From positions 1 through 37,296 of IMG/VR virus record IMGVR_UViG_2711768063_000005: DNA of 37,296 bases. One strand, written 5' to 3'. The DNA is from a virus (taxonomy: Duplodnaviria > Heunggongvirae > Uroviricota > Caudoviricetes). The notes below the pieces were generated by a model. The model was given only the letters and a program-made list of their open reading frames with translations, made no database searches and was not told where the DNA came from. The position numbers and the translations under genes were made by a program. Shown piece after piece: positions 1 through 33,321 of the stretch (positions within the stretch are counted from its first letter, which is position 1; each line of letters opens with the position of its first letter).

Positions 1-1446
1 ATGAAAATTGAAGCCGTTTTATTCGATTTAGATAACACGTTAGCATCAACAAGTAAGCTAAAAGATATTAGAGAGCGTGGGGCTTATGATGAAATAACAG
101 AAGAATTACTATCAACAGTTAAACCATATAAAGGTACCAAAGAATTACTAGAAAATCTGATTTCAAAAGGTATAAAAACAGGTGTCGTAACTAATTCAAG
201 TAAACGTTATGCAGAAAAAATAATTTCACATTTAAATTTACCAAATTTCGGTACTGTGGTGACATATACTGATGTAGGTTCATCAGGGATGAAACCAAAT
301 CCTACTGGTATTAATTTAGCATTAAAAAATCTAGGAATCTCAAATCCGGAACGGGTCATTTATATTGGGGACGATTATACAGATATTATTGCTAGTTATT
401 ATGCGGGGGTTATACCGATTGTTCCATCATGGGCATCAAGGACTCCTGTTTCTCAAGTGCCAGCCGCCGTATTAAGCACTGAGTTCCTTATAGATAATAT
501 TGATGAGTATGAGAATATAATTCTCATGGCGGAAAATTGTGCACGACACAATAGCTTTGAATTTGAGCGAAAAAGATTCTACTTTGTACCTTTGGATGAG
601 TCCGCTAATGTAATTCCTTCAAGTGAAACTCTATCTACAATATGTCTTGGACGTTATTTTTCGCAAAAAAGTTTACTTACAACAAAATTACACGATTCGC
701 ATCCATTATCTATTGAGATCGCCAAGAAAGAGCATGACGATAATTATGTGCCTCCAGAGTATTGGGGCGATATTTTAGCGCATGCGGCAGATAATATTCC
801 ATCTTTTTTCCGGGCTACTAAAGGTTTTGATATTGTTACAGTAATACCAGCTAAAAAAGGAAAAAAAGAAAGATTAGAGAGAGTCTTAGAAAATGCGCGA
901 AGTAAAAGCAATTCCAATGCTGCTTTTATAGCTGATCTTTTTGTTTTTAGTGAGGGAGCAAAATCACTTAAGACCTTACCAAAGGATCAGCGTTCGATAG
1001 AAATAGAATCTAGTTTGCATATGAATCCCAAATATAAAGGTACGCTTGAAGGTAAGACCGTATTAATATTTGATGATGTCATTACCACAGGCTCAACCTT
1101 AAAAAGAGCTTATTCATTGTTGAGAGACGAAAACGTTAAACATAGTTTAGGATTATGCTTGGCTAAAACAGTCTCTATATTTGAAGAGGATAGGCTTTGT
1201 CCTGAATGCATGTGTCACATTCTTAAAATAAAGACAAACTCTCTAACGGGTATTCGATTTTGGGGGTGTTCAGGATATAATGATGAATCAGATAAGTGTG
1301 ATTACACTGAAAGTATCGTTGAGAAACAATGCCCTAACTGTGGTAGAGATATGGTTAAAAAGTATAATAAATGGAAGAGAGTTCGTTTTTTATCCTGTAC
1401 AGGATGGAATAAAGAACCTCGATGCAATTACACTGAGAGTGAGTGA
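1..1446 (+). CDS. Three-part fusion protein: N-terminal HAD-like hydrolase, central type I phosphoribosyltransferase (ComF-like PRTase), C-terminal tandem topoisomerase-type zinc ribbons; ShosT-like toxin candidate
   Basis: HAD motif I FDLDNTL at residues 8-14 with downstream GVVTNSS, KPNP and IGDDYTD motifs; PRTase signature GKTVLIFDDVITTGSTL; two C-terminal CxxC...GCS/SCTG...CxYTES ribbons. ATG sits exactly at window position 1, so promoter and RBS are off-window. Stop overlaps start of next gene. AT-rich. Confidence 0.75.
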   Translation: MKIEAVLFDLDNTLASTSKLKDIRERGAYDEITEELLSTVKPYKGTKELLENLISKGIKTGVVTNSSKRYAEKIISHLNLPNFGTVVTYTDVGSSGMKPNPTGINLALKNLGISNPERVIYIGDDYTDIIASYYAGVIPIVPSWASRTPVSQVPAAVLSTEFLIDNIDEYENIILMAENCARHNSFEFERKRFYFVPLDESANVIPSSETLSTICLGRYFSQKSLLTTKLHDSHPLSIEIAKKEHDDNYVPPEYWGDILAHAADNIPSFFRATKGFDIVTVIPAKKGKKERLERVLENARSKSNSNAAFIADLFVFSEGAKSLKTLPKDQRSIEIESSLHMNPKYKGTLEGKTVLIFDDVITTGSTLKRAYSLLRDENVKHSLGLCLAKTVSIFEEDRLCPECMCHILKIKTNSLTGIRFWGCSGYNDESDKCDYTESIVEKQCPNCGRDMVKKYNKWKRVRFLSCTGWNKEPRCNYTESE

Positions 1447-2429
1447 TGTTGACAATATCTCCAGACACAGAAAAATTGTTAACACTTAGTGCCCTTAAAG
1501 GAGTGGGTACTAAGTCGTTATCTAGTTTAGGCATGCTCAAAGACTTTTCTAGTTTATCTCTTGAGGAGTTGGTGAGATTATTGGGGGTTAAGGAATTAGC
1601 TTCCGATGATTTTTTAGTGGCTAGAGATTTCGCAAGAAAGAATATTGATATAGCTCATGCTAAAAATCATTCTATAATTTCATTTTTTGATGAATGTTAC
1701 CCTGATACATTAAAGGTTACTAGCGATAGACCTGCAATACTTTATTGTGCTGGTAACATTGATTGTCTGCGTAATAAATGTTTGGCGGTAATTGGTACCC
1801 GTGAACCCACTCTACATGGTGAAACGATTGCAAAAAATATCACCAAGTGGTTCACCAAAAAAGGTTGGACCATTGTAAGTGGCTTGGCTAAAGGTGTTGA
1901 TTCAATTGCTCATACCTCCGCTATTGAAAACCAAGGTAAAACAATAGCAGTCATGGCTCAGGGGTTGGAAAAAATTTATCCCAGAGAGAATAAAAAACTC
2001 GCAATGGATATTATTAGTACAGGAGGGGTATTAATTTCGGAATATGCCTATGGAAGTCATACATTTCGTAATAACTTTGTAGAGCGTGATAGAATACAGG
2101 CAGGATTATCAGCTGGGGTTTTAATGGTTCAATCTGACTTAAAAGGTGGTAGTCTGCATGCATCTCGCTCAGCAGTAAATTATGGAAGATATCTTGTTAT
2201 TCCCAATCAGTCCAGAAGAGATATTCTTAATAGCGAGCCTAAAATACAGGCTAATCTTGCATTTATGAGTGGTGATTATTATTTAATTAGATCATTATTG
2301 AAAGTTAATGGAGATATAAGTAAATCTTTAATAATTATGGAAAGCAGTAACGATTACCTTAAGGTTGAAGAGCAATTGTACGATGCCCTTCATTCATTGC
2401 ATAATCAGTATAATGGTTTTGATTTTTAA
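1446..2429 (+). CDS. DprA/Smf-like (Rossmann/SLOG fold) protein; ShosA-like antitoxin candidate
   Basis: DprA-like core LAVIGTREPT...VSGLAKGVDSIAH...TIAVMAQGL...IYP...GGVLISEY...RNNFVERDRIQAGLSAGVLMVQS...GGSLHASRSA. ATG at 1446 overlaps the TGA of the upstream gene (TGATG coupling); track ORF starts 3 nt earlier at GTG. Confidence 0.75.
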   Translation: MLTISPDTEKLLTLSALKGVGTKSLSSLGMLKDFSSLSLEELVRLLGVKELASDDFLVARDFARKNIDIAHAKNHSIISFFDECYPDTLKVTSDRPAILYCAGNIDCLRNKCLAVIGTREPTLHGETIAKNITKWFTKKGWTIVSGLAKGVDSIAHTSAIENQGKTIAVMAQGLEKIYPRENKKLAMDIISTGGVLISEYAYGSHTFRNNFVERDRIQAGLSAGVLMVQSDLKGGSLHASRSAVNYGRYLVIPNQSRRDILNSEPKIQANLAFMSGDYYLIRSLLKVNGDISKSLIIMESSNDYLKVEEQLYDALHSLHNQYNGFDF

Positions 2430-7001: not shown

Positions 7002-7694
7002 TTAATTATGTCTCTTAAGGGTTTGCGACTGACTGATTAAGACCTTTCCAAAGACCATGAATCGGTGTTCGTTTTCGCTAGTAATTCCCCATTCACGGTA
7101 AATCTGGTTATCAGAAATCACCAGCAGTTTGTCAGGAATCATTTGAAGTCTTTTAACGTATATTTTGTCATCAAAACCAAAGACATATATACCATCACCA
7201 TCAAACTGATTGATGCTGACATCGACGAAGATGAGATCTCCTGGCTCAATGGTTGGACACATACTGTCCCCACGAACGTTGATAACTTTGATGTGATTGG
7301 CTGGTCGTCCGCCGAACATTGATACAGCATTATCAGTTCTGTATTCGATGGCATGAATCACATCAATGACATCACCGCCCTGGATAAGGCCATTTCCCGC
7401 ACTGGCACTGATATCCAGCATTTCAATACGGAACACATCCTTCACCTGCGCAACATCCTCATTATTACTGTTTTTATATACAGTATTACTTTTGAGGGCA
7501 GAGGTAAAGAGATCAGCAATATCAACACCTAAGCTCTTGGCAATATTACTCAGTGTTTGTTCGGTAAATTGTTTCTGCTTACCCGTTTCTAAGCGCGAGA
7601 TGTTCGCCGCATCTACTCCTATTGCTTCAGCGAGATCGGCGATTTTCATGTTCTTCGCTTGGCGAAGTTGTCTGACTCGGTTTCCTATGTTCAT
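7002..7694 (-). CDS. cI: CI-type prophage repressor (N-terminal HTH_XRE, C-terminal S24 LexA-like peptidase domain)
   Basis: N-terminus NRVRQLRQAKNMKIADLAEAIGVDAANISRLETGK is a classic HTH; C-terminus contains the autocleavage-type fold with GDSMCPTIEPGDLIFVD and KR in ...IYVKRLQ. Divergent from a cro-like gene. No SD upstream of the ATG (leaderless-like, as for lambda PRM). Confidence 0.9.
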   Translation of the reverse strand: MNIGNRVRQLRQAKNMKIADLAEAIGVDAANISRLETGKQKQFTEQTLSNIAKSLGVDIADLFTSALKSNTVYKNSNNEDVAQVKDVFRIEMLDISASAGNGLIQGGDVIDVIHAIEYRTDNAVSMFGGRPANHIKVINVRGDSMCPTIEPGDLIFVDVSINQFDGDGIYVFGFDDKIYVKRLQMIPDKLLVISDNQIYREWGITSENEHRFMVFGKVLISQSQTLKRHN

Positions 7695-9890: not shown

Positions 9891-10379
9891 ATGAGTCTGT
9901 TAAATGACGTTCAGAAATTCATTGAAGCCCATCCGGGGTGTACTTCCGGAGACATTGCAGATGCTTTTGCAGGTTACTCACGACAGCGCGTTCTGCAGTC
10001 AGCAAGCAAGTTACGTCAGAGTGGGCGTGTGGCTCACCGTTGTGAAGGAGATACACGCAGACATTTCCCGCGCCTGACTGAGAGAGCGCAGGAGCCGGAA
10101 CCACAACCAGTTCGTGAAACCAGACCTGTGCGCAATTTCTATGTCGGCACTAACGATCCACGGGTGATTTTGTGCCTGACCCGCCAGGCTGAAGAACTGG
10201 AGTCCAGGTGCTTATACCGTCGTGCTGCAACGGTGTGGATGGAGGCATTCCGTGAAAGCCACTCCCAGCCAGAGCGAAACAATTTTCTTGCGCGTCGTGA
10301 ACGGTGTTTACGGAAAAGCAGCAAGCGGGCTGCATCAGGTGAAGAGTGGTATCTGTCAGGGAATTACGTGGGGGCTTAA
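9891..10379 (+). CDS. Hypothetical regulatory protein; C-terminal region resembles PerC/Pch-family activators (tentative)
   Basis: ATG 3 nt after the O-like stop; stop overlaps the next ATG (TAATG); segment ELESRCLYRRAATVWMEAFRES is PerC-like from memory. Confidence 0.45.
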   Translation: MSLLNDVQKFIEAHPGCTSGDIADAFAGYSRQRVLQSASKLRQSGRVAHRCEGDTRRHFPRLTERAQEPEPQPVRETRPVRNFYVGTNDPRVILCLTRQAEELESRCLYRRAATVWMEAFRESHSQPERNNFLARRERCLRKSSKRAASGEEWYLSGNYVGA

Positions 10380-11032
10380 TGAGTAATAAATATTGCCAGG
10401 CGCTGGTGGAACTGCGGAACAAACCAGCCCATGAACTGAAGGAAGTGGGCGATCAGTGGCGCACGCCGGACAACATTTTCTGGGGAATTAACACCCTGTT
10501 TGGCCCGTTTGTTCTGGATCTGTTCACTGACGGTGATAACGCCAAATGTGCCGCGTATTACACGGCGGAAGACAACGCGCTGGCGCATGACTGGTCAGAA
10601 CGCCTTGCGGAGCTTAAAGGTGCTGCCTTTGGTAATCCCCCATACAGCCGCGCCAGTCAGCATGAGGGGCAATACATCACCGGCATGCGTTACATCATGA
10701 AACATGCCAGTGCCATGCGTGATAAGGGCGGGCGCTATGTTTTCCTGATCAAAGCTGCCACCAGCGAAGTGTGGTGGCCGGAAGATGCGGACCATATTGC
10801 TTTTATTCGCGGGCGTATTGGTTTTGAACTGCCTGCCTGGTTTATCCCGAAGGACGAGAAGCAGGTGCCGACAGGAGCGTTCTTCGCTGGTGCTATTGCT
10901 GTTTTCGATAAGACCTGGAAGGGACCGGCAATCAGCTACATCGGGCGCGATGAACTTGAGGCATGTGGTGAGGCGTTTCTGGCGCAGGTTCGCCAGCAGG
11001 CAGAAAAACTGGTCAGGGAGATGGCGGCATGA
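10379..11032 (+). CDS. DNA N6-adenine methyltransferase (phage Dam family)
   Basis: Catalytic NPPY motif (AAFGNPPYSRA); start at the ATG overlapping the upstream stop; the track ORF starts at an upstream GTG inside the preceding gene. Confidence 0.8.
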   Translation: MSNKYCQALVELRNKPAHELKEVGDQWRTPDNIFWGINTLFGPFVLDLFTDGDNAKCAAYYTAEDNALAHDWSERLAELKGAAFGNPPYSRASQHEGQYITGMRYIMKHASAMRDKGGRYVFLIKAATSEVWWPEDADHIAFIRGRIGFELPAWFIPKDEKQVPTGAFFAGAIAVFDKTWKGPAISYIGRDELEACGEAFLAQVRQQAEKLVREMAA

Positions 11033-11355
11033 CGACGTTAACTCAATGCCAGCAGCAGGTGCTGGATATGCTGATTTCTTACCAGAAAGAACGTGGCTTC
11101 CCGCCAACCAATCAGGAGGTGGCAACCATGCTGGGATACCGTTCGGTGAATGCAGCGGTGGAGCATCTTCGCGCACTGGAGAAAAAAGGCGTCATCACGA
11201 TAAAGCGTGGCGTGGCCCGGGGGATAACGCTTCATACCGCGGTGAAGGACGACGACAGCGAGGCGGTCGGAATTATCCGCTCACTGCTTGCCGGTGAGGA
11301 AAACGCCAGGCTGCGTGCAGCCCACTGGTTACATGAGAGGGGCCTGAAAGTATGA
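11029..11355 (+). CDS. LexA N-terminal DNA-binding-domain-like protein (108 aa, no peptidase domain)
   Basis: LTQCQQQVLDMLISYQKERGFPPTNQEVATMLGYRSVNAAVEHLRALEKKGVI parallels the LexA N-terminus ([53 protein letters not shown]); ATG overlaps the Dam stop (ATGA). Confidence 0.7.
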   Translation: MTTLTQCQQQVLDMLISYQKERGFPPTNQEVATMLGYRSVNAAVEHLRALEKKGVITIKRGVARGITLHTAVKDDDSEAVGIIRSLLAGEENARLRAAHWLHERGLKV

Positions 11356-11741
11356 AGTTGATCCTTCCTTTCCCGCCCAGCGTGAACACGTACTGGCGAC
11401 ACCCCAACAAAGGGGCATTTGCTGGTAAGAGCCTGATAAGCGCGGCGGGGCGAAAATTTCAGAGCGCGGCGTGCGCAGCAATAGTTGAGCAGTTACGTCG
11501 TCTGCCAAAACCAACGTCGGCACCTGCTTCTGTGGAGATCGTGTTGTTTCCTCCGGATAACCGGATCCGCGATCTGGACAACTATAACAAGGCGCTGTTT
11601 GACGCCCTGACCCACGCGGGTGTGTGGGAAGACGACAGACAGGTGAAAAGAATGCTGGTGGAGTGGGGACCGGTTATCCCGAAAGGGAAGGTCGAGATCA
11701 CTATCAGTAAGTATGAGAAACCGGCGGGTGCAGCTGCCTGA
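11352..11741 (+). CDS. rusA: Holliday junction resolvase RusA
   Basis: LPFPPSVNTYWRH...DLDNYNKALFDALTHAGVWEDDRQV matches the RusA pattern (LPWPPSNNRYYRH...[25 protein letters not shown]); ATG overlaps the upstream stop. Confidence 0.85.
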   Translation: MKLILPFPPSVNTYWRHPNKGAFAGKSLISAAGRKFQSAACAAIVEQLRRLPKPTSAPASVEIVLFPPDNRIRDLDNYNKALFDALTHAGVWEDDRQVKRMLVEWGPVIPKGKVEITISKYEKPAGAAA

Positions 11742-13927: not shown

Positions 13928-13946
13928 GACGGCCATATTGGCCGTC
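13928..13946. terminator. Bidirectional hairpin between convergent Q and the cargo cassette
   Basis: Perfect inverted repeat GACGGCCA-tat-TGGCCGTC in an AT-rich context; overlaps the stop of the minus-strand gene. Confidence 0.45.
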
Positions 13947-15123
13947 AGCTAAATAAATATGTAATAGCATAAGGCGTAAGTAAAAAGTAGAATCTAAATG
14001 TAAGATATAAGCCACATAAAACTATAATTCCTAATGAGGCAAAAACAATTTTCTGAACAAGCAATCTTGTGGTTAAACTATCAAATGTATCCTTTATATC
14101 TTCGTAAATAGCCTTGAAGTTATATTCTGCTTGTTGTTTTTTATGATTTAACTCATCATTTATTGCTGTTAAAGTTTGCCATTGATTAAATAGAACAAAT
14201 AGAATCATAATAGTGAAGAACAATGCACCCAACACTACAGCTGTGTTTATTAATGCTTGACTATCCCAACCATTAGCCTGCTTCATTTGAGTCGCAACGA
14301 TAATTGTTGCGACGGGGATACCTAATATCTGATTTTGTATGTCACTGAATACTTTATGTATTTTCCCCATCTCTTCTATTTTGGCTACTCGTAACTGATC
14401 CAGTATTTTCTCGTAAGAAAAACCAGAAACGAATACTTTGTATCCTTTTTGATAACTTTCATAAAGTTGTCCTAAATCCCTTAACATGAAGGAAAAAGAG
14501 GTTTCTTTAGTTTTAGATTCACATGATGATTTTATACTACTTGCTAAAATAGTAAGTTTTTGATCTTTATGCGTATCTTCTGCAAAGTTTGCGATCAAAT
14601 TATGAATCAGATCTCCATTAACATTCATAAGATCATCGCTAGAATAATTTACTGGAATTTTTAGTACGTTGGATTCGACGAATACCAATTCAAAATTTGT
14701 TTCATCTAAATAAGCAGAACAATCTTTGAATAAAGTAATTAAGCTCAAAACATCTCTGTACTTGGATATAATAGCAGGCGACTTTTTATCCCTGTTGTGA
14801 TAATTAAGTTCGATTATAAAGAAGTTACTGGCTTCCTTTATCCTATTTTTAGGATTTTTTAAATACTCATTAAAAGAGAAATGTAGCTGCCCCAATCGTA
14901 ATTTGGGGGGGGTTATATGTAAGGTTATAGTTTGGCCTAACTCAATGTTGCCAGATTCAAGGGTGATGCCAAAATCATGGGGATTCTCTGTGATATCGTT
15001 GATGATGTCACAGAGCTCCTCGTTTGAAAGAATGAGTGATGCTTCAGATAGGGTACCTGCAAATGTAGCGGCCTTGTAAATAGTCACTAAGTCTTTGAAG
15101 GTTCTCTGATTGTTACTGCTCAT
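13945..15123 (-). CDS. Membrane-anchored protein of unknown function (about 290-aa soluble N-terminal region, two C-terminal TM helices); partner of the NA37-like gene
   Basis: ATG at 15123 with AGGTG 6 nt upstream, inside the last codons of the upstream gene (11-nt overlap, coupling). Hydrophobic segments ALINTAVVLGALFFTIMILFVLF and IVFASLGIIVLCGLYLTFRFYFLL near the C-terminus. AT-rich. No family recognised. Confidence 0.7.
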   Translation of the reverse strand: MSSNNQRTFKDLVTIYKAATFAGTLSEASLILSNEELCDIINDITENPHDFGITLESGNIELGQTITLHITPPKLRLGQLHFSFNEYLKNPKNRIKEASNFFIIELNYHNRDKKSPAIISKYRDVLSLITLFKDCSAYLDETNFELVFVESNVLKIPVNYSSDDLMNVNGDLIHNLIANFAEDTHKDQKLTILASSIKSSCESKTKETSFSFMLRDLGQLYESYQKGYKVFVSGFSYEKILDQLRVAKIEEMGKIHKVFSDIQNQILGIPVATIIVATQMKQANGWDSQALINTAVVLGALFFTIMILFVLFNQWQTLTAINDELNHKKQQAEYNFKAIYEDIKDTFDSLTTRLLVQKIVFASLGIIVLCGLYLTFRFYFLLTPYAITYLFS

Positions 15124-16147
15124 CCTCTTCACCTAATTCTGATAAAATCTCTGATCTTAGCGTATCCGGAATCTCGGTAAGTATCAATTTATCGTTTTCT
15201 GAATCATAAAGAACGCTGCCATCATGCAAGGCCGCACGCTCGAATTTCAGAGACCAATGTTTGGACTTTCCTTTGAAACTAACAAGCCCACGTATAACGT
15301 TGCCATCAGGCACGAACCCATCAGAGAACTCCAGATCGTCATTGGTTAACTTTTCAACTAACAACTCAGGAGCAGTTGGCCATATCTCGTTTGCAAAAAT
15401 TTGAGTGTCGAAAGTTTCACCAGAACGATTTAAATTTTTTAATTTTTCATGAGCCTTATTTAGGAACTCTTCACGTGCCTCTGGTTCAAAACCTCTTTCA
15501 GTAGCAAATTCTAAAAGTGCATTCCGTAATTTTGTTGTTTCTTGTTTGGCAATTAGAATATCGTTGCAACCTAAAAACTTTTTGAAATAACCTGCTACTG
15601 AATTTTGCCCCTTTAGAAAGCTAATATATCTCTCTTTGCCATTCTGGCGCCCAGTTAAGTCAATTCGTCCCGCTACTCGAAGTTTAGCAATGTCTAGATA
15701 TTCACTTTCTTGAATTTCAAAATCGTGGACTGAAGAGCCAACTGCTGATGTTAGGATTGCAACCATCAAATAATGATTTCCATTTACCTCATTATGGGCA
15801 ATTATTACATAACCACCAGTAGACATTGATTCATCATCGGCTCTGGCTTTTAAATGATTGATCATTCGGATACTAGTATCATAAAAACTATGTGTTTTAT
15901 TTACGAAATAATCATCAACGATATTACCCATAGGGTAACTATCGCGGTCATCTTCAAATTTCCCATATCCTTTACCTGCTCTCCCAGAGTACCTTTCAGT
16001 AAGTGCGTTAGAGAGGTCTTTTGATGCTTGCTGAACAGGTTTTTCTGAAGGACAAGGAATAATGGTGGCTAACCCCTGTTGTTCCTTGTTCATAATGTGA
16101 ACAATAAACTTATGAGTGATATTAGTGGGGGTCGCTGATGCAGTCAT
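15113..16147 (-). CDS. NdpA/YejK-like nucleoid-associated protein homologue (NA37 family), phage-encoded
   Basis: Full-length collinearity with E. coli YejK as I recall it: [22 protein letters not shown] vs [38 protein letters not shown] vs [25 protein letters not shown]...FLG vs TRYLTFLKG...FLG. AAGGA RBS 8 nt upstream of the ATG; AT-rich. Confidence 0.8.
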   Translation of the reverse strand: [344 protein letters not shown]

Positions 16148-31992: not shown

Positions 31993-33321
31993 ATGACGTG
32001 GAAAGACAGACTTCAGGACGCGTCATTTCGCGGTGTGCCGTTTAAGGTTGAAGAAGAAAGTGCGGGAACCGGTCGTCGTGTGGAAACGCACGAATACCCG
32101 AACCGCGACAAACCCTATACCGAAGACCTGGGGAAAATCTCTTTCCGCCCGTCCATCACAGCTTATGTGGTGGGAGATGACTGCTTTGACCAGCGCGATC
32201 GCCTGATTGACGCGCTGAATAAACCCGGTCCCGGCACGCTTGTCCATCCGACTTACGGTGAGCTGAAAGTCTGTGTTGACGGGGAAGTTCGGGTCAGCAC
32301 ATCGAAGAGTGAAGGGCGTATTGTCCGCTTTGACCTGAAGTTTGTCGAAGCGGGAGAACTCTCTTACCCCACTTCAGGTGCGGCGACGGCGCAGACGCTG
32401 ATGTCATCCTGTTCTGCACTGGATGACTGCATCAGTGACAGCTTCAGTGGTTTCAGTATCGATGGCGTGGCAGATTTTGTGCAGAACGACGTCGTCGGTA
32501 ATGCCAGCACAATGCTTGGGTATGTTTCTGATGCGATGAAAGTGGTGGATTCTGCCGTATCGGATGCCGCCAGGCTGTTGCAGGGGGATATCTCGGTACT
32601 TCTGCCGCCACCATCGTCAGGCAAAAATTTCGTTGAGCAGGTGCAGAAAATGTGGCGTACCGGGAAACGCCTTTATGGTAACGCCAGCGACCTGGTCACC
32701 ATGATCAAAACGCTTTCCGGTGTCAGCCTCGGCAGCGATCTGCAACCGCGCGGCGTCTGGAAAACGGACAGTAAAACTACCGCCACGGCGACGCAGCAGC
32801 GTAACGTGGTTGCCAGCACCCTTCGTACGACCGCAATCAGCGAAGCGGCGTATGCCGTCACACGATTGCCTGCGCCCACAACTTCCGCGGTGATGCAGAA
32901 TGCCACAGTAGGGCAGTCAACAACACCCGCGCAGAGCACCGGCTGGCCTTCTGTCACGCATCCGGCACTGAACAATGCACCGGCGGTGAAAAACACGGTT
33001 GACCTGCCAACGTGGGAAGAACTGACCGACATTCGCGACACACTGAATACGGCAATTGATAAGGAGTTGTCCCGTACAACCAGTGATGCGCTGTTTCTGG
33101 CGCTGCGCCGGGTGAAAGCAGATCTGAATGCGGATATCAACACGCGCCTTGAACAGTCTGCACGGATCATTCAGCGCACGCCGGATGAGGTTTTACCCGC
33201 GCTGGTGCTGGCGGCGACCTGGTTTGATAACGCGGCGCGTGACGCGGACATTATCCGGCGTAATGCCATTACGCATCCCGGCTTTGTGCCGGTGATCCCT
33301 CTGAAGGTGCCAGTGCAATGA
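31993..33321 (+). CDS. DNA circulation protein (Mu gpN-like)
   Basis: Start at the ATG preceded by GGAG (MTWKDRLQDASFRGVPF...), the typical N-terminus of this family; the track ORF starts 42 nt upstream. Confidence 0.75.
   Translation: MTWKDRLQDASFRGVPFKVEEESAGTGRRVETHEYPNRDKPYTEDLGKISFRPSITAYVVGDDCFDQRDRLIDALNKPGPGTLVHPTYGELKVCVDGEVRVSTSKSEGRIVRFDLKFVEAGELSYPTSGAATAQTLMSSCSALDDCISDSFSGFSIDGVADFVQNDVVGNASTMLGYVSDAMKVVDSAVSDAARLLQGDISVLLPPPSSGKNFVEQVQKMWRTGKRLYGNASDLVTMIKTLSGVSLGSDLQPRGVWKTDSKTTATATQQRNVVASTLRTTAISEAAYAVTRLPAPTTSAVMQNATVGQSTTPAQSTGWPSVTHPALNNAPAVKNTVDLPTWEELTDIRDTLNTAIDKELSRTTSDALFLALRRVKADLNADINTRLEQSARIIQRTPDEVLPALVLAATWFDNAARDADIIRRNAITHPGFVPVIPLKVPVQ

What the first reader, a model, noticed from the sequence alone, without database searches (positions are those of the whole stretch)
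11029..11355. Phage-encoded LexA DNA-binding domain without the autocleavage domain
The 108-aa protein parallels the LexA N-terminal winged-helix domain closely but lacks the S24 peptidase/dimerisation domain. Such a protein could occupy SOS boxes without being cleavable by RecA, or heterodimerise or compete with LexA, modulating the host SOS response or prophage induction. It sits in the nin-like region with Dam and RusA.
Basis: partly seen in the sequence, partly recalled or inferred. Interest (0 to 1): 0.5.

Follow-up and report, generated by a model that had tools for sequence, protein, structure and literature searches.

The report
Prophage LexA DNA-binding domain, no protease
A very common E. 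coli prophage gene encodes a copy of the DNA-binding half of the SOS repressor LexA that lacks the self-cleaving half; it is already annotated in thousands of genomes, and no experimental study of its function turned up in the literature I could search.

Summary
Window 11029-11355 (+) encodes a 108-aa protein. Residues 1-69 are a complete LexA winged-helix domain (Pfam PF01726, E=2.9e-19; model superposes on E. coli LexA at 1.0-1.3 A, 50-52% identity). There is no S24 peptidase domain. A family-specific two-helix tail follows (residues 74-103). The gene overlaps its neighbours by ATGA (Dam, then this gene, then RusA) in the rightward early operon of an SfII/SfIV-like prophage.

It is not new as a sequence. 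It matches PHROG 362 end to end, occurs in 2233 of 5426 complete E. coli genomes and in Stx2 phages, and is named "LexA family transcriptional regulator".

Four of the five LexA base-contacting residues are kept (S39, N41, A42, E45). E44 is Val here and is never Glu in any family member aligned. Positions 42-45 vary between genera whose SOS boxes I assume to be the same. Heterodimerising with LexA is unlikely, because the domain through which LexA dimerises is absent.

Best reading (confidence about 0.4): a RecA-insensitive LexA-type repressor, made during lytic growth, that binds SOS-like operators. Main rival: a phage-specific regulator with shifted specificity, like GIL01 gp6. Function is untested.

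The parts
11029..11355 (+). CDS, 108 aa: stand-alone LexA-type DNA-binding protein (PHROG 362; 'LexA family transcriptional regulator')
   Evidence: ORF. Pfam PF01726 E=2.9e-19. PHROG 362 E=1.4e-59, matched 1-108 against 1-106/106. The exact protein is on at least 1000 public contigs.
11016..11020 (+). Shine-Dalgarno-like GGGAG, 8 nt before the ATG
   Evidence: Read from the sequence.
11029..11235 (+). Winged helix-turn-helix domain (aa 1-69), homologous to LexA residues 1-69
   Evidence: AF2 secondary structure. Foldseek to 1lea, 3jso and 3jsp at rmsd 1.0-1.3 A, 50-52% identity.
11143..11184 (+). Recognition helix region (aa 39-52, SVNAAVEHLRALEK). LexA contact positions are S39, N41, A42, V44 (Glu in LexA) and E45
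   Evidence: Alignments to E. coli LexA. Contact list from PMC3091678.
11248..11337 (+). Family-specific C-terminal tail of two helices (aa 74-87 and 93-103). Its first part (LLAGEE) aligns weakly with the LexA cleavage-site region VAAGEP. Inferred dimerisation element
   Evidence: AF2 model. The tail is conserved in members at 42-50% identity. HMMER and TIGR00498 alignments extend to LexA position about 86-91.
10379..11032 (+). Upstream gene: phage Dam-type N6-adenine methyltransferase. Its stop overlaps the ATG of the LexA-like gene (ATGA)
   Evidence: Pfam PF05869 E=1.1e-45. Sequence. Start chosen by analogy with the mEp460 annotation; the mechanical ORF begins at 10346.
11352..11741 (+). 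Downstream gene: RusA Holliday-junction resolvase. Its ATG overlaps the stop of the LexA-like gene (ATGA)
   Evidence: Pfam PF05866 E=1.3e-14. Sequence. In Kluyvera the two genes are fused into one ORF.
7466..7485 (.). Candidate target only: the one near-consensus SOS box in the window, TACTGTTTTTATATACAGTA, inside the cI-like repressor gene
   Evidence: Only zero-mismatch CTGT-N8-ACAG in 37 kb. It scores 32 of 34 on my own ad hoc consensus-match score, next best 25. Conserved in SfII, mEp460, 1720a-02 and a S. flexneri prophage, and with C for the first T in a Citrobacter prophage. Binding by the phage protein is not shown.

Best explanation
The gene encodes a small DNA-binding protein that is essentially the N-terminal autocleavage product of an enterobacterial-type LexA. 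It has the wHTH domain and a remnant of the linker and cleavage-site region. The protease/dimerisation domain is replaced by a short two-helix tail.

It is transcribed and translated with Dam and RusA as part of the rightward early operon, so it is made after induction or infection.

Because it has no S24 domain, activated RecA cannot switch it off. Because the LexA cleavage-site remnant is internal rather than a free C-terminus, it probably escapes the ClpXP route that clears the natural LexA fragment.

The most likely action is as follows. It dimerises through the tail and binds dyad operators of the LexA type (CTGT-N8-ACAG or a close variant). It thereby re-imposes repression on LexA-controlled promoters at the time when host LexA has been destroyed. 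Those promoters would include host SOS genes and LexA-controlled phage genes.

**Shown:** architecture, homology, gene position, conservation.
**Inferred:** timing of expression, dimerisation, DNA target, the repressor role, and escape from ClpXP.
For: - **Fold.** Complete LexA wHTH with 50-52% identity and rmsd 1.0-1.3 A to E. coli LexA.
- **Contact residues.** S39, N41, A42 and E45 are retained; R38, K53 and R64-G65-I66 are also conserved. The recognition helix is far closer to LexA than that of the altered-specificity homologue gp6, whose essential K38 aligns with N41.
- **Precedent for a free NTD repressing.** A free LexA NTD retains SOS-box binding and repression unless degraded (PMC10584840).
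- **No S24.** TIGR00498 is matched only to position 91.
- **Tail.** It is conserved down to 42% identity.
- **Dimerising substitutes.** Relatives replace the tail in different ways: an in-frame RusA fusion in Kluyvera (RusA being a dimer is from my own knowledge), another 90-aa domain in Enterobacter pulveris (the record's name), or two tandem LexA domains in one chain. This fits a need for two DNA-binding domains on a dyad site.
- **Operon.** ATGA overlaps on both sides and no promoter or terminator nearby.
- **SOS boxes in carrier phages.** Three perfect CTGT-N8-ACAG in 12.3 kb of mEp460 against 0.15 expected. One lies in cI of this window. One lies about 100 bp upstream of the KilA-N gene just downstream of this gene in SfIV.
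- **Selection.** Purifying.
Against: - E44, one of the five listed LexA contact residues, is Val here and is V/A/T/F/Y/L/G, never Glu, in every family member aligned.
- Positions 42-45 change wholesale between genera: AAVE in E. coli; TIAG/TITG in Citrobacter; SATA, AAFE and AAAD in other members. I assume, without having checked, that the host LexA proteins and SOS boxes of these genera are alike.
- The Citrobacter prophage keeps the SOS box in cI despite its different helix.
- R28 of LexA is Asn here.
- No promoter-like element was found at the cI-internal box. No enriched dyad other than standard SOS boxes was found.
- SOS boxes in these phages are explained equally well by host LexA alone.
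- Dimerisation and DNA binding were not testable with the tools.
Confidence: 0.4

Rival explanations
1. It is a phage-specific transcription factor whose specificity has drifted away from the SOS box. It would act on one or a few phage promoters as repressor or activator, as GIL01 gp6 does at the tectivirus late promoter P3.
For: - gp6 is a LexA-NTD-only protein that binds GaCACAnnTGTGaC, not the host LexA box, and activates transcription (PMC6182141).
- Glu44 is lost across the whole family, and positions 42-45 are hypervariable between members. Window against Citrobacter L004 shows four consecutive substitutions there, within an otherwise 68% identical protein.
- Short LexA-DBD-only proteins are common in unrelated phages.
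Against: - No candidate operator was found. There is no recurrent dyad in the window or related phages apart from canonical SOS boxes.
- The E. coli-type helix differs from LexA at only two of nine positions (P40V, E44V).
- Late gene control in these phages is already provided by Q.
- The protein is not closely related to gp6: no significant BLASTP alignment, 35% identity in a global alignment.
Confidence: 0.35
2. It is a DNA-binding accessory of the neighbouring DNA-metabolism genes, for example tethering or modulating RusA (or the upstream methyltransferase), rather than a transcription factor.
For: - ATGA overlaps with both Dam and RusA.
- In at least two Kluyvera species the LexA domain is fused in frame to a complete RusA: PF01726 at 1-65 and PF05866 at 86-199 in one 208-aa ORF.
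- A DNA methyltransferase of four unrelated families (PF05869, PF05063, PF00145, PF00145+PF02086) sits immediately upstream in most loci.
Against: - Both neighbours are dispensable. Many E. coli and Shigella prophages have a PerC-like gene instead of a methyltransferase upstream.
- Kosakonia and Enterobacter loci have DUF968 instead of RusA downstream.
- SfIV keeps the gene although its rusA is frameshifted.
- The fusion keeps RusA's own start codon and may be a simple deletion.
Confidence: 0.1
3. It acts as a decoy or pseudo-substrate. The retained cleavage-site-like segment (LLA88-G89EE, aligned with LexA VAA84-G85EP) would engage RecA* or the S24 active site of LexA or CI and modulate their cleavage.
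For: HMMER and TIGR00498 alignments run through the LexA cleavage-site region, and Ala-Gly is present in the E. coli-type protein.
Against: - Gly89 is Asn in several members (LLANEE).
- AF2 predicts this segment as a helix (aa 74-87). In LexA, as I recall, the cleavage-site region is a strand-loop.
- Alignment confidence there is low.
- In the Kluyvera fusions the segment is absent.
Confidence: 0.05

Closest known systems
E. coli LexA (TIGR00498; PDB 1lea, 3jso), in particular its N-terminal autocleavage fragment 1-84
   Same: - Same wHTH fold, with 50-52% identity over about 68 residues.
- Keeps S39, N41, A42 and E45 of the recognition helix.
- Homology extends into the linker and cleavage-site region.
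- Like the cleaved fragment, it has no dimerisation/protease domain. Published work says that fragment still represses unless degraded.
   Different: - No S24 domain, so no RecA response.
- E44V, P40V, R28N.
- A new two-helix C-terminal tail.
- Encoded in a prophage early operon rather than an autoregulated chromosomal gene.
- Scores below the LexA equivalog cutoff.
gp6 of Bacillus thuringiensis tectivirus GIL01 (Fornelos et al. 2018, PMC6182141)
   Same: A phage-encoded LexA homologue consisting of the DNA-binding domain only, encoded among early genes.
   Different: - gp6 is 66 aa with no tail.
- No significant BLASTP alignment and about 35% identity in a global alignment.
- gp6 has Lys where LexA and this protein have N41.
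- gp6 recognises a different dyad and activates a late promoter.
- The two are independent truncations of different host-lineage lexA genes (inference).
PHROG 362 / Pfam PF01726-only phage proteins ('LexA repressor DNA-binding domain-containing protein')
   Same: - End-to-end match to PHROG 362.
- Orthologues at 98% DNA identity in mEp460, SfIV, 1720a-02, Ayreon and Stx2c phages, among others; SfII carries an annotated copy in the same position.
- Structurally similar short proteins in many uncultured phages and Mycobacterium phage Wildcat.
   Different: None for PHROG 362: this is a member. The family's 'transcriptional repressor' label is an annotation. No experimental paper on it was found.

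Membership tests
LexA repressor proper (TIGR00498 equivalog) | N-terminal LexA-type winged-helix DNA-binding domain (PF01726) | tested here: met
   PF01726 E=2.9e-19, full-length match. Rmsd 1.0-1.3 A to 1lea and 3jso.
LexA repressor proper (TIGR00498 equivalog) | C-terminal S24 peptidase/dimerisation domain with the Ser-Lys dyad | tested here: not met
   The protein ends at residue 108. No PF00717 hit. TIGR00498 matched only at 1-91 of 203, 70.8 bits against a cutoff of 110.95.
LexA repressor proper (TIGR00498 equivalog) | Ala-Gly autocleavage site | tested here: inconclusive
   A88-G89 aligns with A84-G85 at low alignment confidence. Gly is Asn in several family members. Without a catalytic domain, self-cleavage is not possible.
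LexA repressor proper (TIGR00498 equivalog) | Recognition-helix residues that contact the CTGT half-site (S39, N41, A42, E44, E45) | tested here: inconclusive
   Four of five are identical and E44 is Val. Family members vary at 42, 44 and 45.
LexA repressor proper (TIGR00498 equivalog) | Binds SOS boxes and represses the SOS regulon | not testable with these tools
   Needs EMSA, reporter or ChIP assays.
PHROG 362 (phage 'transcriptional repressor', LexA-DBD plus tail) | End-to-end sequence match including the C-terminal tail | tested here: met
   E=1.4e-59, protein 1-108 against profile 1-106/106.
GIL01 gp6-type LexA-homologue activators | LexA DNA-binding domain only, phage-encoded | tested here: met
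GIL01 gp6-type LexA-homologue activators | Sequence relatedness to gp6, including the essential Lys38 in the recognition helix | tested here: not met
   No BLASTP alignment at E<=100. Global alignment gives 35% identity. gp6 K38 aligns with N41 of this protein.
GIL01 gp6-type LexA-homologue activators | Binds a dyad overlapping the -35 of a late promoter and activates it | not testable with these tools
   No candidate site was found by dyad searches.

The most novel reading that the evidence does not exclude
Prophages in about 40% of E. coli genomes, including Stx2a and Stx2c phages, carry a RecA-proof and probably ClpXP-proof surrogate of the LexA DNA-binding fragment. Once the phage early operon fires, it would re-silence the host SOS regulon and LexA-controlled genes of this and co-resident prophages. 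That would shape SOS-dependent mutagenesis, toxin genes and prophage cross-induction.
Probability: 0.3. Interest if true: 0.7.

Novelty: new member of a known kind. Interest (0 to 1): 0.4.

Why it matters
If the protein does bind SOS boxes, a very common prophage gene would give phages a way to shut the SOS response down again in damaged cells. The gene is in 2233 of 5426 complete E. coli genomes, with up to four copies per genome, and is also in Shiga-toxin phages.

That would bear on antibiotic-induced mutagenesis, Stx phage induction and competition between co-resident prophages.

If it instead has a private operator, it is one more small phage regulator and a second, independent example of the gp6 theme.

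Either way the question is cheap to settle experimentally. At present the gene carries a function-implying label ('SOS-response repressor LexA' in some records), and I found no published data behind it.

Tried and rejected
1. **Promoters or terminators next to the gene.** None beyond chance. I conclude it is part of the early operon.
2. **Promoter at the cI-internal SOS box.** None found by the scan or by eye, so I do not claim a regulatory role for that box.
3. **De novo dyad searches.**
   - Perfect 7-bp inverted repeats with spacers 0-14.
   - CTGT/ACAG half-sites at every spacing 0-16 in the window, SfIV, SfII, an Stx2c phage, 1720a-02 and lambda.
   - An apparent excess of ACAG-N13/14-CTGT proved to be scattered coding-sequence matches shared by homology. 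Rejected.
4. **Comparing SOS-box counts between carrier and non-carrier phages.** Abandoned after lambda. Few genomes, non-independent, and host LexA explains the boxes anyway.
5. **Literature.** Seven searches aimed at this family found no study of it. RgdR, a prophage regulator I suspected might be related, is a DUF4222 protein, and the EHEC island-regulator review does not mention LexA. The Zhang et al. 2010 LexA-DNA structure paper was not available, so the contact-residue list comes from a secondary source.
6. **The search for related loci with the broad alignment.** Failed for lack of a conserved stretch; a narrower alignment worked.
7. **PADLOC.** Gave only a meaningless weak hit for this protein.
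8. **Homodimer or protein-DNA structure prediction.** Not possible with the single-chain tool.

Full report
**1. What is at the coordinates**

An ORF runs from ATG 11029 to TGA 11355 on the + strand and encodes 108 aa. A GGGAG sits 8 nt upstream of the ATG.

The ATG overlaps the stop codon of the upstream Dam-type methyltransferase gene (ATGA). The stop overlaps the ATG of the downstream rusA gene (ATGA).

The gene order is cI-like repressor (minus strand), Cro, CII/YmfL-like, replication protein, PerC-like, Dam, this gene, RusA, KilA-N protein, DUF968/HNH, Q.

No promoter- or terminator-like element beyond chance lies near the gene. I infer that it is a delayed-early gene of the rightward operon.

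The window as a whole is an SfII/SfIV/SfV-like prophage with a contractile-tail structural module.

**2. The protein**

- Pfam LexA_DNA_bind matches residues 1-65 over the whole profile (E=2.9e-19). There is no S24 hit.
- The best solved relatives are E. coli LexA entries (E about 1e-15), aligned from residue 2 to residues 69-90.
- An AlphaFold2 model built on a 20-sequence family alignment (mean pLDDT 83) gives three helices and a two-strand wing for residues 1-68.
- A low-confidence linker follows (residues 71-73), then two helices at 74-87 and 93-103.
- The N-terminal part superposes on LexA in 1lea, 3jso and 3jsp at rmsd 1.0-1.3 A with 50-52% identity. The tail has no LexA counterpart.
- NCBIfam's lexA equivalog is matched only over positions 1-91 of 203 and falls below its cutoff.
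- The segment IIRSLLA88-G89EE aligns, at low confidence, with LexA LVGRVAA84-G85EP.

In short, the protein looks like a lexA gene cut just after the cleavage site and capped with about 18 new residues.

**3.

A secondary source lists the LexA base-contacting residues as Ser39, Asn41, Ala42, Glu44 and Glu45, all in helix III (PMC3091678). The primary structure paper was not available.

The phage protein reads S39-V40-N41-A42-A43-V44-E45, so four of five are retained and Glu44 is Val. R38, K53 and R64-G65-I66 are also conserved. R28 is Asn.

Across the family the picture is less LexA-like.
- **Position 44** is V, A, T, F, Y, L or G, never Glu. This holds in 15 close relatives, in nine distant relatives with the tail at 42-50% identity, and in the fetched loci.
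- **Positions 42 and 45** also vary:

| Source | Residues 42-45 |
|---|---|
| E. coli / Shigella | AAVE |
| Citrobacter (two members) | TIAG / TITG |
| Kosakonia sacchari and an Enterobacter MAG | SATA |
| Other Kosakonia | AAFE |
| Kluyvera | AAAD |

I assume these hosts share the same LexA recognition helix and SOS box; I did not examine their LexA proteins. On that assumption, this variation is not what a strict LexA mimic should show.

Between the window and an otherwise collinear Citrobacter prophage (about 80% DNA identity), the protein is 68% identical. Four of the differences are consecutive at positions 42-45, yet that prophage keeps the SOS box inside its cI gene.

**4. How common and how known**

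- The same gene, at 95% DNA identity or more, occurs in 2233 of 5426 complete E. coli genomes, with up to four copies per genome.
- It occurs in 50 phage records, including mEp460, SfIV, 1720a-02, Ayreon, Stx2c phages and three Stx2-converting phage records. SfII carries an annotated copy in the same position.
- The exact protein sequence is on at least 1000 public contigs, named 'LexA family transcriptional regulator' or, wrongly, 'SOS-response transcriptional repressor LexA'.
- It matches PHROG 362 ('transcriptional repressor') end to end.
- Related genes occur in Citrobacter, Kluyvera, Kosakonia and Enterobacter prophages.
- Short LexA-DBD-only proteins are widespread in other phages. Proteins with two tandem LexA domains also exist.
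- The gene is under purifying selection: pN 0.20 against pS 0.83 versus Citrobacter, and dN/dS 0.08-0.16 among close relatives.

None of my searches for work on this family found an experimental study of the enterobacterial proteins. The searchable library is incomplete.

**5. Context in relatives**

The gene always lies in the nin region.

*Upstream* is a DNA methyltransferase of one of four unrelated families, or a PerC-like gene:
- Dam (PF05869)
- MT-A70 (PF05063)
- C5 methylase (PF00145)
- a C5 + D12 fusion (PF00145 + PF02086)

*Downstream* is RusA or DUF968.

The simplest reading is that the gene borders a slot where methyltransferase cargo is exchanged.

In Kluyvera the tail is missing and the LexA domain reads in frame into a complete RusA (208 aa). 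In Enterobacter pulveris (the record's name) a different 90-aa C-terminal region follows the domain.

I take these variants, and the tandem-domain proteins, as indirect support that two DNA-binding domains must be brought together and that the tail normally does this. That is an inference. RusA being a dimer comes from my own knowledge, not from a tool result.

**6. Mechanism**

Three things are established.
- LexA dimerises through its C-terminal domain (PMC6590174).
- The free LexA N-terminal fragment keeps some SOS-box binding and repression.
- That fragment must be removed by ClpXP for full SOS induction (PMC10584840).

The phage protein resembles that fragment, cannot respond to RecA*, and carries the former cleavage-site residues internally rather than as a free C-terminus.

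My best explanation (confidence about 0.4) is therefore a RecA-insensitive LexA-type repressor. It would be produced once the early operon is on, and would bind SOS-type operators of the host and of LexA-controlled phage genes.

Candidate phage targets exist.
- The only near-consensus SOS box in the window lies inside the cI gene (7466-7485).
- mEp460 has three perfect CTGT-N8-ACAG boxes in 12.3 kb against 0.15 expected.
- SfIV has a strong box about 100 bp upstream of the KilA-N gene, just downstream of this gene.

Host LexA alone would also explain all of these.

The main rival (about 0.35) is a regulator with a shifted, phage-specific operator. The precedent is GIL01 gp6, a 66-aa LexA-domain protein that binds GaCACAnnTGTGaC and activates the late promoter (PMC6182141).
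- gp6 is not a close relative: no significant BLASTP alignment, 35% identity in a global alignment. Its essential K38 aligns with N41, which this protein retains.
- I found no candidate private operator.

Minor rivals are a RusA or DNA-metabolism accessory (0.1) and a cleavage-site decoy (0.05).

**7. Verdict**

The gene is a member of an already annotated, very abundant phage family. The family belongs to a known kind, S24-less LexA homologues in phages, with one characterised example in a distant phage group. Its function is untested.

Interest is moderate. The hypothesis is cheap to test and would matter for SOS biology and Stx-phage induction if true. The sequence evidence is split between 'LexA surrogate' and 'private regulator'.

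Noticed in passing
window 7466-7485: Near-consensus SOS box TACTGTTTTTATATACAGTA lies inside the cI-like repressor gene (7002-7694, minus strand), in the part coding for the linker between the HTH and S24 domains (peptide NTVYKNS). It is conserved in SfII, mEp460, 1720a-02 and a S. flexneri prophage, and with C for the first T in a Citrobacter prophage. This cI allele is in 1040 of 5426 E. coli genomes. No promoter was detected at it, and its role is unexplained.
   Followed up: partly
window 1-2429: Two genes next to the integrase match the ShosTA defence/toxin-antitoxin pair. The first is a 481-aa protein with HAD, PRTase and zinc-ribbon domains (ShosT, E=1.8e-14). The second is DprA-like (ShosA, E=5e-80).
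   Followed up: partly
window 13945-16147 (minus strand): Two opposite-strand genes are inserted between Q and the lysis genes. One is an NA37/YejK-like nucleoid-associated protein (E=8e-69). The other is a 395-aa protein with hydrophobic stretches near its C-terminal end and no Pfam or PADLOC match. SfII and SfIV carry two opposite-strand genes in the same position.
   Followed up: no
L005 4001-4627 and L006 4001-4639 (Kluyvera): The LexA DNA-binding domain is fused in frame to a complete RusA resolvase in one ORF (208 and 212 aa). The two-helix tail is absent and RusA's own Met is retained.
   Followed up: partly
L019 (SfIV) 32198-32760: rusA is frameshifted. A strong SOS box (TACTGTATTTATGAACAGTA, 32639-32658) lies in a roughly 170-bp spacer about 100 bp upstream of a KilA-N gene with a different N-terminus. 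This may be a LexA-controlled antirepressor-like gene.
   Followed up: partly
L001 10597, L020 16751, L006 7929, L011 6794: A conserved SOS box (TACTGTAAAAATAAACAGTG or close) recurs in several phages and prophages. In mEp460 it sits at the start of the DNA methylase gene downstream of Q, and in the Kosakonia locus it lies downstream of Q. The Stx2c and Kluyvera positions were not mapped to genes.
   Followed up: no
L020 49747-49794 and L021 1292-1339: Two tandem SOS boxes 28 bp apart. In 1720a-02 they lie between the integrase gene and an 83-aa ORF. The same pair occurs in an Stx2c phage, where no genes are annotated.
   Followed up: no
proteins P0132, P0148, P0152, P0156, P0160: Proteins from public metagenomes and genomes carry two tandem LexA DNA-binding domains and no S24 domain. 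They are possible single-chain pseudo-dimers.
   Followed up: no
L007, L009, L010, window 10379-11032: Four unrelated DNA methyltransferase families occupy the slot immediately upstream of the LexA-like gene in different prophages: Dam PF05869, MT-A70, C5, and a C5+D12 fusion.
   Followed up: partly
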